Assembly (NCBI RefSeq): GCF_009914755.1
Contig: NC_060944.1
Direction: 5' to 3' (one strand)
DNA from: the human T2T-CHM13v2.0 reference genome, Homo sapiens
Length of the DNA: 64,000 bases
Under the pieces are notes generated by a model, which had not been told where the DNA came from, made no database searches, and saw only the letters and a list, made by a program, of their open reading frames with translations. The position numbers were made by a program, and so were the translations under genes. Below, in pieces: positions 124 to 56,180 of this stretch (position 1 is its first letter; each line of letters starts with the position of its first letter).

Positions 124-18340
<18,217 letters not shown>

Positions 18341-18563: not shown

Positions 18564-19354
18564 TGACTCCTGTATCTCGGTATCTCCTGGCTGGTTTATT
18601 CCCCAGTCACGTAGGACTTGACTTGGCCTTTGCCTCCAGTGCCCTCCTTAGCTCCAGGTAGGAGCTTCTGGGAGGTGAGGGGACTCAGGGCCTTGTCATT
18701 GTAGCTTTGAGTCCCAAACTGACCTTGTTGGCCTGGGCAGCCTCTGTGTCCTGTTCTGCCTTCCTCTCTGTCCCTGCCCCCCTTGCCTCCAGCTCTCTCT
18801 CTCTCTCTTTCTCTAAATACTTCTACTTTTCACTCTCTCTCTCTCTGAGTCTGCATTTTTCTCTGTTTCTGACTTTGGGATGCTTATCAGAAGTGACATC
18901 TGAGCTGAATTTTGAAGGGAGAATAGGAGCTTTCCAGGAAACAAAGGCACTAGCACCCCAGGAAGCAAGGATGAGTGAGACTTGTTCTTGCCCTGTGGTG
19001 TGGGGGGGTCCCTATTGGCTGCACATCAGACATGGACACAGCTCAGAACAGAGCTGTGCCAAACGCTCTTGGTGCAGATGGGGAGACTGAAGCCAGAGCA
19101 GGGCTTGGCTGGCCCTGGTCCACACAGCGGCAGAGTTGGGATGAGAGACTAGGGGTCCTGCCTCTAGGTCCTGGGCTTCTCCCCACTGCTTACGATGGGC
19201 ACCTTTGGTGAAAAATATCCCCAAGTTGGCACTTACAGATGGCCTGAGTGAAGAAGTGCCAACCAAGTTTTGATAACTGGCTCAGAGGATTTGAGGCTAG
19301 GCAATAGGTAGGGGAGACTTGGAGCTCATCTGAAGATTTATCCACAACTCATTC

Positions 19355-19790
19355 ATTCAGCCGACCAGCCAGCCAGCCAGCCTCCCGTCCATCCATCCAT
19401 CCATCCATCCATCCATCCATCCATCCATCCATCCCCCCTCCCATCCAGCCTCCCATCCATCCATCCACTCACCCTCCCATTTAGCCTCCTATTCAACCAT
19501 TCATCCACCCTCCCATCCAACTTTCTACCCATCCATTATTCTATCCACCCACCCACCCATTCTCCCATCCATCCATCCATCCATCTATCCATCCATCCAT
19601 CTATCCATCTATCCATCTATCCATCCGTCCATCCACTCATGCATGCATCCATCCATTCATGCATCCATCCATCCATCCATCCATGCATCCATCCATCTTC
19701 CCCCCTTCTTCCTTGCTTCCCTTCCTCCTTCCCTTCCTCTGTCCCACCCTCCCTTCCCTTTTCTCGTCCTTTCTTTTCATTCATCCACCC
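19355..19790. repeat. (TCCA)n low-complexity tract
   Basis: Direct reading. Confidence 0.9.
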
Positions 19791-22700
19791 TACATTTATT
19801 GGTGCCTGCTACATGCCAGTGCTGGGTGACATGCTCGGGTTTATCTTCCTGTGTCTGATTTCCAGACACTTCCAGTGCTACTGATTCCCATCATGGTTAA
19901 ATGAGTGGCTTGAGTTAGCTGTCCGTGTTCAAATCCCTTCCTGGCTTCTGGTTAGCCATGTGGCCTCAGGCAAGTCATTTCCTCTCCCTGAGCCTCAGTT
20001 TCTTCATCAGTAACTTGAGGATGTTCTATTATGGCTTTGAGGATTAAACCAGCACTCAGGATGGTGACCCATCTGTAAGAAGCCCCCAGTTCCAGTTAGC
20101 TCTTGTTACGGTTGCATTATTCTATCTCCTCTCCATTCACAGCCCCAGCTGTCCCTCCTCATCTCTCACAGGGAACACCCTTCCCTGACTCCCACCCTTC
20201 TCTCTTTCATCCCATCCCCCTCCTGCCCATCCTTGACCTCCTTTGACCGTCTCTCACTGTCACAGACAGCCCTGCAGTGGCTGGATTCCTGGCGCCAACA
20301 GGAAAGCCTCCAAGCTCCGAGGTTTGGCATTTAAGGCTGCCTGTGACCTGGCCTCAGCTGATTCCTCCTGGAGCATGCAGAGGGAGCAGAGCTGTCTCTG
20401 TGCCTCGGGCTCCTCGTCTGCGAAGTGGGAATATTATAGTATTTACTCACGGGTCATCTAGGGATGAAACCAGACAATTCTTGTAAAGTTCTGAGAAGAG
20501 TGCCTGGCACCTGGAAAACGAGTAACAATGTGCAGCCAGGCCTTTGCACGGCTCTTCCCTCTTCCTGGAACATTCCCTCTCCTCTCCTCCAAGTGTGCCT
20601 GGCAAACCCGTGCCATCCTTCATACACAGGACAGCGCCTCCCCGTGTGGCAGCAGGGCCCAGTATTGTATGGGCCACACTGGTCACTGCCTCAGTTTCAC
20701 TCTCCCACTTGCCCAAGAGCTCCTCAAGGTCAGGGACAGTGTCTGCTTCATCATGGTGAGTCCTGCAGCTGCAGAGAGTAGAGGTGAGAGCAGTTAACCT
20801 CTGATGAGTGCTTACTGTGTGCTGGATGCTACGTCAGATGCTTAGCATCCCTTAGTGCACTTAATTTCACAGCCCCCAGGATGGGTGGATATTATCATCC
20901 TGTTCTACATATAAGGAAACTGAAGCTCAGAGAAATGGAATCAGCCAGCTTCTAAGTGGCAGAAGCAGGATTTGAACCAGATCCCTCTGACTCGAATTCC
21001 AAAGTCTGGGCTTTCACTGCTATGCCAGAAAGTTCTTGCTGCATTTATTGCATGCTTACTAAGTGCCAGACACTGTTCTAAGTGCTTTAGGTACGTCATG
21101 TCATCAGCTTCTTGAATCAGGCCTGCTTTCTAGGAACTGTCTTCACCTTCATTATACAGTTGAGGAAACCGAGGCATAGAGAAGTTAAGTGGTATGCTCA
21201 AGGCCACACAGCTAGGTAGTGACAAGATTGAGATTTGAACCTAGTACCCAGTCTCTGACCCCCTGCCTCTGGACCCCAGTCTCTGAACTCCGCCCTTAGG
21301 GTGAGGAATCAAACAAGACTGAAGGGAGCCCCTTGCAGCCCTGGAGGGCTGACAGTTCATGGCAGGGGGGCAAGGGCTGAGTGGAGTTTTGGTGGTGGGT
21401 CTGATCTGTTTTCTAATCTCAGCAGCCCCAGTGTGACCCCCTGGCTCCTGTGTGGCTGAGTCACCTTGGAGGTGAGTCACCTCCCAGGGAATCTGGATGT
21501 CCTTCCAGCCGTCCCCCACTAGGTCCTTCCAGCTCCAGACAAAGGTACCTTTTGGAAGCTAAGCCCAGGTGATCTCCCCGGCGCCAGGGCTGCCCTAATC
21601 CTCTCAGGGTGGCCAGGAAGGACCCAGGGGACAGGCTGGCCTGAGGACTGAGAATGGGCACAGAACCTTGGGTGACTGGCACCACCTTCATGTGTGCACC
21701 GCCCTCTACAGTTTATAGTGTGCATTGGTTCCTGCCCTCTTAGGAGTGGGGAAAGGCACAGTTGCCCTCTTTGCATTGTATTCCATTTAAAACTGTCATA
21801 TATTTGTATCACAAACATTTTTATCACACTTACTAAGTGCCAGGCAATGGGGAACCACAACGACTGTAAACAGGGAAGACCCAGGAGCTGAGTTACTCAG
21901 ATGAGTAGCATCATTTTGAAATGTCCTTTCTAGTTTCCCCATTTTACAGGGGTGCAGACTGAGGCACTGAGAAAGAGTCATTGTCACAAGTTTATGCTGC
22001 TAGCAGGCTGGGCAGAACTTACCCCTACTCAGTGTCTGCTTTCATCAAGGGAAACTAAGGGGGGCTGCTGTTTACGGAGCTCCGAGGCTCCAGGGACATT
22101 CCACACATTTCCTATGTAACTCTCAAAACCCTCCTGGGAAAGTGTAATTATGCCCATTTTGCAGGTGGCCAGACGGTGGCCAGGGAGAAGTGATTGTTGA
22201 GGCTAAAAGGGCAGATGAATGTGGGAACGCAGGAGTGTGTGACTCTTGGAGTCCCTATTTCCCATTCCAGGAACCCCTCCAGCCCGCACAGGAGGCAATG
22301 AGGTGGTCTGGGCTGAAGCTACTTCCTCATGCCCCTCATCGCCCTCCAGACTTGCTGCCGTGTGGGACCCAGGATGATAAGGACGTAAATGCCACTCGCT
22401 GAGCCCAGCTGTGTGCAAGGCCCTGTTCCCAGAGCTTTGCAGGTCAGGACAGTTCCAATCACAATCTTACAACCAAGGAAACAGGGAGAACTGGCAGCAG
22501 AAGTCAAGCCCAGCAGCCAGCTCTGGAGCCTGTGCTCTTAACGGTTCCATCAATGCACCCACTGCAGATGGGGAAACTGAGTTCCAAGGTGGGACTGGCC
22601 CAGTGGCACAGAAGTGAGGGGTGACATCGGTTGAGCTTGGCAGGACTTATATCAATGACGCCTGCCTTAGAGTCCCCACTGCCTCCAGGGAGGAAGGAGG

Positions 22701-23289
22701 AGGCATCTCCTTGGGGAGTCGGGGGCAAAACACGTTTATTCCCAGTTTGACTTGAAAGCAGGCCTTGGTGGAGACAGAAATGTCTCCTGCCTCTCAGAAT
22801 TCACAGACGGGCAGGGTTGGAGCAGGGAGGAGGTGGCATTGATTAAACATGGAGGTAGGACTTGGGTTGGGGCTATGGGGTGGGAAGATAGGGAGCACTT
22901 TGTCCAGTGGAGAGCGAAAGATGAGTTAATTAATTCATTCACTTGTTCATTTGTTACACTGGCATCTATGCCTGTGCTGGCCTAGGAGTGGGGCACATAG
23001 CTGGTTCGCCTGGAGAAACAACACTTCACTATGGGCCCCAGGGATCTCTGGATGAGCCAGAGGAACTGTAGGGGCTGGGGGAAGCTTCCTGCAGCTGCTT
23101 ACCTTTCACCCTTAGAATCTGGAGAGGGCTTTGTAGACAGCAGGGACTGCACATGCAAAGGCCCAGAGGCAGGGAGCACAGGGGGTGATGAGGAGGGGAT
23201 GGAAGGAATGAGTAGCTCTGTGTGAAGAGAGGACTGGGATGTGTGTACGGAAGGCCTTGGATGCCAAGTGAAGTGGTCTGGGCTGTGTC

Positions 23290-23695
23290 CCAGCAGGTTT
23301 TGGAGGGTGCAACTGGGAAAAGGCAGACGGAACATTCTGGGGTGGTGGAAATGTTCTATATTGTGATAGGAGTGTGGGCTGCATGACCGTAAAAAATGGT
23401 CAAAACTCAGCAAATGAACATTTAAGATTTGTGCATGTCACTGTATTTAAAGATATAAAGAAAAGAATCTGAATGCCATGCAGGGTGAAGTGTTTAGTGG
23501 TAGTATACTGATGTCTGCAACTTTCAAATGCATAAAAAATAAAAGATGGACTAACAGATGGATGCAAATATGACAAGAATGTAAATGGTGGGTATAGTTG
23601 GTGGGAACAACGTGACAACCATGTGTGTCCGCTGTACATTTCCTTCACCTTTGCTATAGGTATGAAAATTTCATGAGGAAATAGTTGGGAAAAAC
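23290..23695 (+). mobile_element. Old L1 (L1M-type) 3' end fragment
   Basis: ttctggggtggtggaaatgttctatatt...gtcaaaactcagcaaatgaacatttaagatttgtgca. Confidence 0.65.
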
Positions 23696-23698
23696 CTT

Positions 23699-23793
23699 GT
23701 TGTATCTCATACATAGTAAACACTCAATAAACAGCAGCTATTGTTATTACTTTGGGACTATTATTTCAGACCCCTAAGAAATGAGTGAGGAAT
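23699..23793. repeat. Inverted repeat, left arm (partner 25190-25284)
   Basis: 95 bp, 5 mismatches and no gaps against the reverse complement of 25190-25284. Confidence 0.95.
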
Positions 23794-24351
23794 ATTTTTC
23801 AGATAAAAAAAAATGCACATTCGTGCACCAGTCCCAAGTTTGAGGAGCTGGATTCATATTCGTCTCCTTTAGTCCTAAAATCAGCCCTGTGAGGCAGGTA
23901 TTATACTCATTTGCCAGATGGAAAGAATGTGAGGCTCAGAGGAGGGAAGTGGCTGGCCCAAGGTCATACGGTGAGTTGGGGGTTGAGCAGGGTTTGAACC
24001 TGGGTCATCCTGATGCTGAGTCCAGCCTGGGCACCTCCTGTCTACCCAGATCATCTGGAATGGCTAGTGCCTGCCTTAGAGTTAGAAACTAGATGCATCT
24101 GGGGGTGATTCCAGTTCCCCAAGCTTGAGGCCTAGCTGGGGTCTCTGGGAATGTGCCCAGCCCAAGGGCTGATAAAACCCAGCTCATGTGACACCATCTG
24201 GGGCTGAGTGCAAGTCTTGGAATTAGCCACAAACCGCAAACCTTTATGGTTTTGGGGCTCAATGCCCAATTTGCAGAGCAAATCTGAATTCCGGTCTCTT
24301 GTAATTACACAGTGTTTCCCTCTCTGGGGTCTGGGCTCAGCCTCAGGCTGC

Positions 24352-24358
24352 TATATAA
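24352..24358 (+). promoter_or_regulatory. BPIFB4 TATA box
   Basis: TATATAA followed about 85 nt later by a strong donor GGG|gtaagg at 24444. Confidence 0.75.
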
Positions 24359-24379
24359 GACTGATCTGTGACCAGACTC

Positions 24380-24443
24380 AGCCAAAAGCAGAGGGGCTGG
24401 GGAACAGGACTTCTCAAGACTCAGCGGCAGGGACCTCCTAGGG
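24380..24443 (+). other. BPIFB4: BPIFB4 probable non-coding exon 1 (5' end approximate)
   Basis: Starts about 28 nt after the TATA box, contains no ATG, donor gtaagg at 24444. Confidence 0.65.
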
Positions 24444-25189
24444 GTAAGGAGGCGCACCTTGTCTACTCAGTGTCCGGCAGGGGAGGCACAGGCCTGGGAA
24501 GGTAATAAGGAGAGAGAGTCCCAGCCTGGAGATCCATCAGGATGGCCCCTCTCCAAGTTCAGGGGTCTTGTCTGTAGCATGGGCCTAGTCAGGAGAGCCT
24601 CTTGGGAATCAGCAAAAAGGCCTGGGTTATGCCAATTACATGCATGCGCAGAGCTGCACTCATCTTTCCCAGGGACGTTGGGTACCGAGGGCCTTTGCTA
24701 CCTCCTGGAGACTCCTCAGCTGTTTGCTGATGCCAGAAATCTTCCATCGGTGCCCATCTTTTTAACTGAAAGGGGTGATTCCTTTTTGAACACAGCTCTC
24801 TGGAAAGTGAGGTTAGGATGAGGTGAGGAAGCCAGAAAAAAATTATTGCATATAGTAGTCCTTTATATTCTAGTGTAAATGAATGCCTCTAATATTCTTC
24901 TGGGAGCAGATAGGAGTAGGGAAAGAATTTGGGGGGCGCTGTGAAGTCCAAGAGAAATGGGGACAGAAAAAAGAGGAGAGTGTGCCTAAACAAAGGTGGC
25001 TGAAACCAACAATTTCTTGGCTCAGATGAGAGGCCATGCCCTGTGCTGACTCTCTGAGGTTGGTGGATGTGTAGCCGGGGCTGATGGAGTGAGAGAAGTG
25101 GATGAGGGCACAAAAGGAGCAAAAGAAAGTTTCCCAGAGGCTATGCAGCTCGTTCCAAAATGCATGTTTCACCTCCCCAATCTCATAAC

Positions 25190-25284
25190 ATTCCTCACCC
25201 ACTTCTTAGGGGTCTGAAATAACAGTCCCAAAGTAATAACAATAGCTGCTCTTTATTGAGTGTCTACTATGTATGAGATACAAC
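25190..25284. repeat. Inverted repeat, right arm (partner 23699-23793)
   Basis: See left arm. Confidence 0.95.
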
Positions 25285-25439
25285 TTGTTTGTGATTTGGG
25301 AGCAGAAGTTCAAAAAGGTAAAGTCCCTTTCCTAAGCATTAAGACCCAGATATCTCTGACCTAGAGCCATTAATATTAACCACGTGGTGTAGAACTGACT
25401 CCTCCAAAGAGATGGGAAGAGTGTTTGCTGGTGAGCTGG

Positions 25440-25890
25440 ATGTGTGGAAGGGTGGCTAGATGAATGCATTGATGAGTAGATAAACTGATGGAAAGATGAA
25501 TGGATGGATGGATGGATAGCTGGGTGGATGGATGGTTGGTTGGATAGATGGATGGGCAGGAGGATATATGGCTTGCCAGCTGTTTGGATGACAGATGGAT
25601 GATAGATATATGGGAAGATGGATGGATGGTGGGATGGGTGGACAGATTAATAAATAGAGGGAGGAGAATGAGTTGATGAGTGGATGGATGGTTGGTTGGA
25701 TGGATGGTTGGTTGGATGGATAGATATATGGCTTGCTGGGTGTTTCCATGACAGATGGGTAATAGATAGATGGAAAGATAGTAGGTTGAATGTATGGGTG
25801 AATAGGAGAATAAATACGAAGGGGAGAATGAGTAGATGAGTAGATGGGTGAGTGATGTAGAGGAATGAGTAGATGAGTAGATGGGTAGAT
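25440..25890. repeat. (TGGA)n low-complexity tract with a degenerate ~160-bp internal duplication
   Basis: gatatatggcttgc...atgacagatgg occurs twice. Confidence 0.85.
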
Positions 25891-26055
25891 GCTGGAGAGA
25901 GTTCCTTAGAACCTGCGAGCTCCCAGTTTGGTGTTTTTGTTGGAATCCCTATTACCCATCTCCCTGATGCTCAATTTGTCAATTCCATCTTGGGAGATAA
26001 TTAGACATCCATTCTCTGAAACAGTGTGTTTAATGGGTCTGCTTTGTGTCACCAG

Positions 26056-26113
26056 ATTCATTTCAATTTGAAAAACTCAAAAGGTAGTATCTGGAATTCT
26101 GGACCCTGCCTTA
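26056..26113 (+). other. Possible small 5'UTR exon of BPIFB4
   Basis: ctttgtgtcaccag| acceptor; candidate donors at 26084 (gtagta) or 26114 (gtatgt). Unverified. Confidence 0.3.
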
Positions 26114-26267
26114 GTATGTGACCTTGGCTGGTTTCCCCTCTCTCTGGGTCCCAGGGTCCTGAGATGACTCTTGGCTGGGGCTGCCTAGTGCTACCTGCTG
26201 GCCAGGGTGGTGGCGCCCAGCCACATCTGCATCTGCACTTTCTCCTCCACAGGGAAGCAGTGCCAGC

Positions 26268-56180
<29,913 letters not shown>

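What the first reader, a model, noticed from the sequence alone, without database searches (positions are those of the whole stretch)
23699..25284. BPIFB4 promoter and first exon sit inside a 95-bp near-perfect inverted repeat
Seen: 23699-23793 and 25190-25284 are reverse complements with 5 mismatches in 95 bp and no gaps. The 1396-bp spacer holds the TATA box (24352), exon 1 and its donor (24444). About half of each arm resembles a MIR tail, but independent MIR copies are far more diverged, and identity continues into non-MIR sequence. Inference: a local inverted duplication, or arms homogenised by gene conversion or recurrent inversion. Recombination between the arms would flip the promoter to fire antisense toward BPIFB3 and silence BPIFB4, making this a candidate invertible-promoter allele.
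Basis: partly seen in the sequence, partly recalled or inferred. Interest (0 to 1): 0.72.

Follow-up and report, generated by a model that had tools for sequence, protein, structure and literature searches.

The report
Copied splice junction beside BPIFB4 promoter
A 98-base stretch covering the start of the BPIFB4 gene's second exon also sits back to front just upstream of the promoter, likely a one-off DNA copying accident of a common kind rather than a switch that flips the promoter.

Summary
The inverted repeat is real: 23699-23796 and 25187-25284, 98 nt with 6 mismatches (95 nt and 5 as read). The genome search found only these two full copies. The edges are sharp, with no older flanking homology. 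Size and spacing fit the common short 'inverted duplication' class (PMC4617611), and 1 of 20 random 10-kb stretches held a similar pair. A flipping promoter is unsupported: the longest perfect run is 27 nt, and no inversion is listed here for 44 or 65 humans or against chimpanzee. Which arm is the parent is unresolved; the right is favoured about 2.5:1. If the left is the parent, the duplication built exon 2's acceptor. One oddity remains: all six mismatches are C on the right-arm sense strand (P about 0.002, post hoc). No primate orthologs were available, so age and conversion are untested.

The parts
23699..23796 (-). Left arm: inverted copy of the intron-1/exon-2 junction; upstream of the RefSeq start, so not in the BPIFB4 pre-mRNA
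25187..25284 (+). Right arm: last 23 nt of intron 1, acceptor AG (25208-25209) and first 75 nt of exon 2
   Evidence: and the RefSeq table in the finding
23797..25186 (.). Spacer (1390 nt between the 98-nt arms) with promoter, exon 1 and most of intron 1
24352..24358 (+). TATA box, 31 nt before the RefSeq start; no TATA-type match on the minus strand of the spacer
24383..24443 (+). BPIFB4 exon 1 (non-coding), GT donor at 24444
   Evidence: RefSeq table; (donor 9.1 on a matrix from window donors)
25210..25317 (+). BPIFB4 exon 2 (5' UTR), mostly an antisense MIR-type repeat; weak acceptor (1.7; leave-one-out scores of the other 30 run from -4.4 to 17.4, only one lower) and modest donor (6.0)
   Evidence: RefSeq table; (crude matrices)
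25269..25275 (+). Two upstream ATGs inside the right arm: 25269 opens a 65-codon out-of-frame ORF overlapping the main start; 25273 is in frame and would add 20 residues; both in weak context
23773..23796 (-). Copy of the exon-2 acceptor on the minus strand (first exonic base 23773; score 2.0 against 1.7); donor-like site at 23648 on the minus strand; use not shown
23481..23697 (+). 3' end of an old dispersed repeat (L1ME-type LINE; name recalled), ending 1-3 nt before the left arm
   Evidence: 100 bits against a profile of 16 relatives
25220..25362 (-). MIR-type element: tail inside the right arm, core (25296-25330, 13.6 bits) outside it, 72 profile positions skipped near the arm edge
23823..24047 (-). 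Separate, nearly full MIR-type element in the spacer

Best explanation
The two arms are a 98-nt inverted duplication that likely arose once, when a replication or repair template switch copied the intron-1/exon-2 junction of BPIFB4 back to front to a site about 590 nt upstream of the transcription start. Shown: two copies, sharp edges, the right arm holds a RefSeq splice acceptor, and the left arm lies outside the RefSeq transcript. Inferred: a microhomology-type template switch made it, the right arm is the parent, the spacer kept its orientation, and the left copy is a neutral passenger. Mismatches now break the arms into runs of at most 27 nt, so homologous flipping would be a very rare accident and not a regulated switch. 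At 6.1% difference (95% range 2.3-12.9%) a clock-like age would be near the human-macaque split (calibration recalled); it would be younger if the six C-strand differences arose in one burst.
For: Only two full copies among 3 matches. No extension beyond either edge: inner score reached by 40 of 300 shuffles, outer by 300 of 300. Class match: 54% of 229 characterised inversion sites were inverted duplications, nearly all under 1 kb and within 5 kb of the other copy (PMC4617611); 277 of 733 events, median 284 bp (PMC12350158). 1 of 20 random 10-kb stretches held a 98-nt, 100% identical inverted pair 503 nt apart, where one copy continues as a whole repeat and the other does not. Right as parent: a MIR core lies just outside the right arm on the same strand (13.6 bits; reached in 0.4% of random segments). 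The LINE-type element on the left aligns continuously to its natural 3' end at the arm edge; the 40 nt before that score 25 bits as LINE and -22.5 as in-register MIR. No plus-strand MIR head was found in 22400-23480. No inversion is listed at the locus.
Against: Polarity is not clean. 23658-23695 scores 17.9 bits as LINE end but also 15.2 bits as MIR in register with the arm's tail. None of 16 LINE relatives exceeds 4.1 there, and LINE-emitted sequence reaches 15.2 in 0.1% of simulations. The 72-position jump in the right MIR falls near the arm edge, which a right-parent model does not explain. At 25264 the MIR profile prefers the left base (0.59 against 0.25). The all-C skew of the six mismatches is not what slow neutral decay predicts (P 0.0017, post hoc, rough mutation spectrum). 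No ortholog or single-copy allele was seen, so origin, age and neutrality are inferred.
Confidence: 0.5

Rival explanations
1. It was a single inverted duplication in the other direction. The left arm is the parent, and the copy landed in a resident MIR in intron 1, replacing its 3' part and supplying the acceptor of exon 2. The duplication would have created a new 5' UTR exon with two upstream ATGs.
For: The left flank aligns to MIR in register across the arm edge (15.2 bits; null 0.04%). The right MIR jumps 72 positions near the arm edge. The exon-2 acceptor is weak, as young exons often are (generalisation recalled).
Against: It needs the LINE on the left to have lost its last 38 nt and MIR sequence to mimic them in register (0.025% of simulations). 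The LINE reading scores higher and is continuous.
Confidence: 0.2
2. Two ancient inverted MIR tails were later homogenised by template switching or gene conversion, with the tract running about 35 nt into unique sequence. The spacer does not flip.
For: Both outer flanks carry MIR-like signal. The outer edge lies about where homology between the two MIRs would end.
Against: Independent MIR-type pairs in the window align at about 72-82% over short stretches, a poor substrate. There is no graded older homology at the inner edge. The left-flank signal is explained at least as well by the LINE.
Confidence: 0.17
3. The spacer was inverted once in the past, and the arms are the duplicated ends left by that event.
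For: Inversions with duplicated or inserted ends are known from non-homologous mechanisms (PMC6748972; bioRxiv 2021.12.20.472354). I found no old repeat spanning either inner edge, so orientation cannot be read from the human sequence.
Against: TATA, exon 1 and donor point the same way as the rest of the gene. There is no human-chimpanzee inversion row in chr20 31.x Mb among 1,576 (coordinate conversion recalled; draft chimpanzee assembly).
Confidence: 0.08
4. The arms recombine, flipping the promoter and exon 1, silencing BPIFB4 and making a spliced antisense RNA through the copied acceptor.
For: The geometry allows it, and the acceptor is present in both arms with equal crude score. Recombination on matches under 50 bp has been seen between repeats 5 kb apart (review PMC2583991).
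Against: 98-nt arms with a longest perfect run of 27 nt. Efficient segments are 134-232 bp in cells and 300-500 bp in meiosis. Repeat length drives recurrence. No row at the locus among 9 chr20 rows for 44 people, nor between the adjacent rows at 25.8 and 38.7 Mb for 65 people, in a table that holds a 1,454-bp chr20 inversion. No PRDM9-type 13-mer in 22001-27000 (motif recalled).
Confidence: 0.05

Closest known systems
Short inverted duplications ('Inverted Dup' of Sudmant 2015, PMC4617611; Schloissnig 2025, PMC12350158)
   Same: Under 1 kb, inverted, within 5 kb of the other copy, two copies, sharp edges.
   Different: Those are polymorphic and near-identical. This one is 6% diverged, apparently fixed, and happens to include a splice acceptor and bracket a promoter. 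The pre-duplication allele was not seen.
Recurrent NAHR inversions between inverted repeats (Giner-Delgado 2019, PMC6748972; Porubsky preprint 2021.12.20.472354)
   Same: Inverted repeats over 90% identical flank a gene part; the spacer is of a size seen among balanced inversions (median 1,565 bp).
   Different: Arms are 98 nt against 654 bp or more (or at least 200 bp); both orientations are not observed here.
Strand-coordinated cytosine mutation clusters (Pinto 2016, PMC4864454)
   Same: All six differences sit at C on one strand, five against T and one against G.
   Different: The ancestral state is unknown and the contexts are mixed (2 TCW, 1 CC, 3 AC), with no CCC-type target.
Exonised antisense MIR in a 5' UTR (recalled class)
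   Same: Exon 2 lies largely in an antisense MIR-type repeat with weak splice sites.
   Different: Its acceptor lies in non-MIR sequence that is duplicated upstream.

Membership tests
Short inverted duplication | Duplicated stretch under 1 kb in inverted orientation | tested here: met
   98 nt, inverted
Short inverted duplication | Within 5 kb of the other copy | tested here: met
   1390 nt apart; criterion
Short inverted duplication | Local two-copy event, not a dispersed family | tested here: met
   2 full-length of 3 genome matches; 2 of 2 for 25225-25410
Short inverted duplication | No retrotransposition hallmarks (own poly(A), target-site duplication) | tested here: inconclusive
   None evident by eye at the four junctions, but the left arm abuts an old LINE-type tail
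Short inverted duplication | Single-copy ancestral allele exists in other haplotypes or species | not testable with these tools
   No relatives of the genome are held
NAHR recurrent inversion | [quoted passage not shown] | tested here: not met
   98 nt; thresholds
NAHR recurrent inversion | Over 90% arm identity | tested here: met
   93.9%
NAHR recurrent inversion | Uninterrupted identity of over 100 bp | tested here: not met
   Runs 2, 9, 2, 20, 27, 12, 20; exceptions under 50 bp exist
NAHR recurrent inversion | Both orientations segregate | tested here: not met
   No row in tables for 44 and 65 people (samples overlap); rare or somatic flips are not excluded
Conversion-homogenised inverted repeat | Arms cluster by species in a tree | not testable with these tools
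   No orthologs
Conversion-homogenised inverted repeat | Older, more diverged homology beyond a young core | tested here: inconclusive
   No arm-to-arm extension; MIR-like signal on both outer flanks
C-coordinated deaminase cluster | All changes at C on one strand | tested here: met
   6 of 6; P 0.0017 for one shared base, post hoc
C-coordinated deaminase cluster | C is the ancestral base | not testable with these tools
   The MIR profile covers two sites; one favours the left base, one is neutral
C-coordinated deaminase cluster | APOBEC or AID motif enrichment | tested here: inconclusive
   Contexts mixed, n = 6; motifs

The most novel reading that the evidence does not exclude
The repeat is a flip-ready promoter cassette. 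Each arm carries the exon-2 acceptor, so recombination in sperm or expressing cells turns the TATA box and exon 1 round, silences BPIFB4, and splices exon 1 onto the left arm to make an antisense RNA toward BPIFB3; repeated flipping or conversion keeps the arms alike across primates.
Probability: 0.05. Interest if true: 0.8.

Novelty: new member of a known kind. Interest (0 to 1): 0.22.

Why it matters
Under the best reading it matters little: it is a fixed example of a common small rearrangement that can mislead short-read mapping or primers at BPIFB4 exon 2. Two cheap follow-ups could raise it. If the left arm is the parent, a 98-nt inverted duplication created a 5' UTR exon with upstream ATGs in a gene studied for longevity (listing), a clear case of exon birth. 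If the six C-strand differences date from the copying event, it would be a germline deamination cluster tied to a template switch, and it would show that divergence overstates the age of such copies. A true invertible human promoter would be very surprising, but nothing found supports it.

Tried and rejected
Chance pairing of independent MIRs: rejected. Older graded homology at the edges: not found. A hairpin in the normal pre-mRNA: rejected, because the RefSeq start lies downstream of the left arm; only a read-through or upstream-started RNA could pair the arms (arm duplex -144 kcal/mol plus strand, -165 minus strand). The MIR pairwise identities (median 46%) came from a poor global alignment with flanks and were not used. 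Profile round m4 lost the arm-only hits; round m2 was used for scoring. One of 17 LINE-type relatives (L046) was left out of the profile because it carries an unrelated insert. Sliding the first 10-19 arm bases along the MIR profile did not place the deletion junction (best scores 4 bits or less). The searches of 23600-23698 and 25225-25410 returned no outside relatives. The supplement search of PMC12350158 had no working positive control (file cut) and is not counted. The first positive control in PMC12350169 missed; a second worked. The horse paper (CNV near LATH) and the clinical inversion paper do not concern this repeat. The bacterial promoter scan was irrelevant. Two call-set papers (a 2022 human inversion set, a 2018 ape set) were not held under the ids tried. 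The background sample was only 200 kb, so the rate of such pairs is rough.

Full report
Observation. The repeat is in the sequence as described. The arms 23699-23793 and 25190-25284 differ at 5 of 95 positions without gaps, and extend to 98 nt with 6 differences. It is the highest-identity pair of 40 nt or more in the window self-comparison (93.9%, E 1.5e-36). A search of the whole genome with the left arm gave 3 matches: itself, the right arm, and a 43-nt piece at 88% on another chromosome. The TATA box (24352), RefSeq start (24383) and donor (24444) lie in the spacer.

The RefSeq table places exon 2 at 25210-25317, so the right arm holds the end of intron 1, the acceptor and 75 nt of exon 2. 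That part of exon 2 has two upstream ATGs: one opens a 65-codon out-of-frame ORF across the main start, and one is in frame and would add 20 residues. The left arm therefore carries a copy of the acceptor on the minus strand. On a crude matrix from the other 30 acceptors in the window, both copies score low and alike (1.7 and 2.0). The left arm lies upstream of the RefSeq start, so the normal pre-mRNA cannot form this hairpin.

Edges and background. Anchored extension found nothing beyond either edge (inner score reached by 40 of 300 shuffles, outer by 300 of 300). In the window plus 20 separate 10-kb stretches (264 kb), 8 local pairs of at least 50 nt and 88% identity within 5 kb were found, 3 of them inverted. 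These were this repeat, an 88% pair of high-copy repeats in the window, and a 98-nt, 100% identical pair 503 nt apart in 1 of the 20 stretches. In that comparator one copy continues as a whole high-copy repeat and the other does not, the pattern of a recent inverted duplication. The sample is small, so the rate is rough. Published surveys describe the class. 54% of 229 characterised inversion sites were inverted duplications, nearly all under 1 kb and within 5 kb of the other copy (PMC4617611, passages). In 1,019 people, 277 of 733 non-mobile-element inversion calls were inverted duplications, median 284 bp (PMC12350158, passages).

Which arm is the parent. I built a profile of the MIR-type repeat from 123 copies with both arm regions excluded, and a profile of the upstream LINE-type repeat from 16 of 17 fetched relatives; both family names are recalled. 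On the right, a MIR core lies just outside the arm on the same strand as the tail (13.6 bits; 0.4% of random segments), but 72 profile positions are skipped near the arm edge. On the left, the LINE aligns continuously to its natural end 1-3 nt before the arm (100 bits). Its last 38 nt score 17.9 bits as LINE, but also 15.2 bits as MIR in register with the arm's tail; none of the 16 relatives exceeds 4.1 there. Simulated, LINE sequence reaches that MIR score in 0.1% of draws and MIR sequence reaches that LINE score in 0.025%. Each direction needs a coincidence. The left-parent model needs more, so I favour the right arm about 2.5 to 1. This is a judgement, not a computed odds.

The mismatches. 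All six carry C on the right-arm sense strand, against T five times and G once, none in CpG. Under a rough neutral spectrum, six differences share one base in one arm in 0.17% of simulations; I noticed the pattern first and tested it afterwards. If C is ancestral, this looks like a strand-coordinated cytosine cluster on single-stranded DNA during copying, a class described in hominid evolution (PMC4864454, passages), though the contexts are mixed. The duplication would then be younger than 6.1% (95% range 2.3-12.9%) implies, since 0 of 76 non-C positions differ. The MIR profile cannot polarise the sites: one favours the left base, one is neutral. This stays unexplained.

Does it flip? Homology-driven inversions had repeats of 654 bp to 24.2 kb in one set of 24 (PMC6748972, passages), and repeat length drove recurrence in another study (bioRxiv 2021.12.20.472354, passages and section 10; supplements not seen). 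Efficient recombination needs 134-232 bp of unbroken identity in cells and 300-500 bp in meiosis, although events on matches under 50 bp occur between close repeats (review PMC2583991, passages). Here the longest run is 27 nt. Table S1 of PMC10150506 (supplement rows only; 44 people; T2T coordinates) has 9 chr20 rows, including a 678-bp event, and none at 34.8 Mb. Table 37 of PMC12350169 (supplement rows only; 65 people, overlapping the 44; file cut when stored) lists a 1,454-bp chr20 inversion and adjacent rows at 25.8 and 38.7 Mb with nothing between. The 1,576 human-chimpanzee candidates of PMC1270012 (abstract, passages, Table S1 search) have no row in chr20 31.x Mb, where the locus falls by my recalled conversion; that list is filtered and rests on a draft assembly. 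Rare, somatic or older flips are not excluded. Larger call sets and primate tables that I could not see may bear on this.

Literature on the locus. BPIFB4 with 'promoter' gave 74 papers (25 listed), with 'inversion' 5 (two read as passages), and an isoform search nothing specific. None of the listings or passages seen describes this repeat. PMC8755829 (first fifth of the text) treats 17-33-nt microinversions and template switching at inverted repeats, a smaller scale.

Verdict. It is a real feature and most likely a single short inverted duplication, a new member of a known kind. The invertible-promoter reading has about 5% support. The open questions, parent arm and the all-C skew, can be settled with one primate alignment.

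Noticed in passing
L029:4512-4609 and 5112-5209 (G000:C2, near 120.005 Mb): 98-nt, 100% identical inverted pair 503 nt apart; one copy lies in a whole Alu-type repeat, the other is an orphan fragment. Likely a very recent inverted duplication, possibly polymorphic.
   Followed up: partly
L022:3013-3086 and 3621-3694; L035:2039-2180: A 74-nt direct pair at 97% with two copies in the sample, and a perfect 71-nt tandem duplication inside an Alu-type repeat.
   Followed up: no
window 25437-25907: GGAT-rich simple repeat right after exon 2, with a 160-nt internal duplication at 72%. Similar tracts lie near 19340-19730 and 37930-38720.
   Followed up: no
window 25269-25275: The in-frame upstream ATG would put 20 residues before the RefSeq start of BPIFB4; the out-of-frame one overlaps it and could damp translation when exon 2 is included.
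   Followed up: partly
window 22300-22315 and 23269-23285: 17-nt direct repeat at 94%, 970 nt apart; probably chance.
   Followed up: no
between BPIFB3 and BPIFB4 (exact window place not derived): PMC11881346 lists one breakpoint of a large inv(20) as intergenic BPIFB3-BPIFB4; by recalled conversion about 3 kb upstream of the left arm, so apparently unrelated.
   Followed up: no
window 19857: A SNP here is listed in full linkage with a 3.3-kb deletion about 570 kb away in a table of variants linked to GWAS SNPs (PMC12350169).
   Followed up: no
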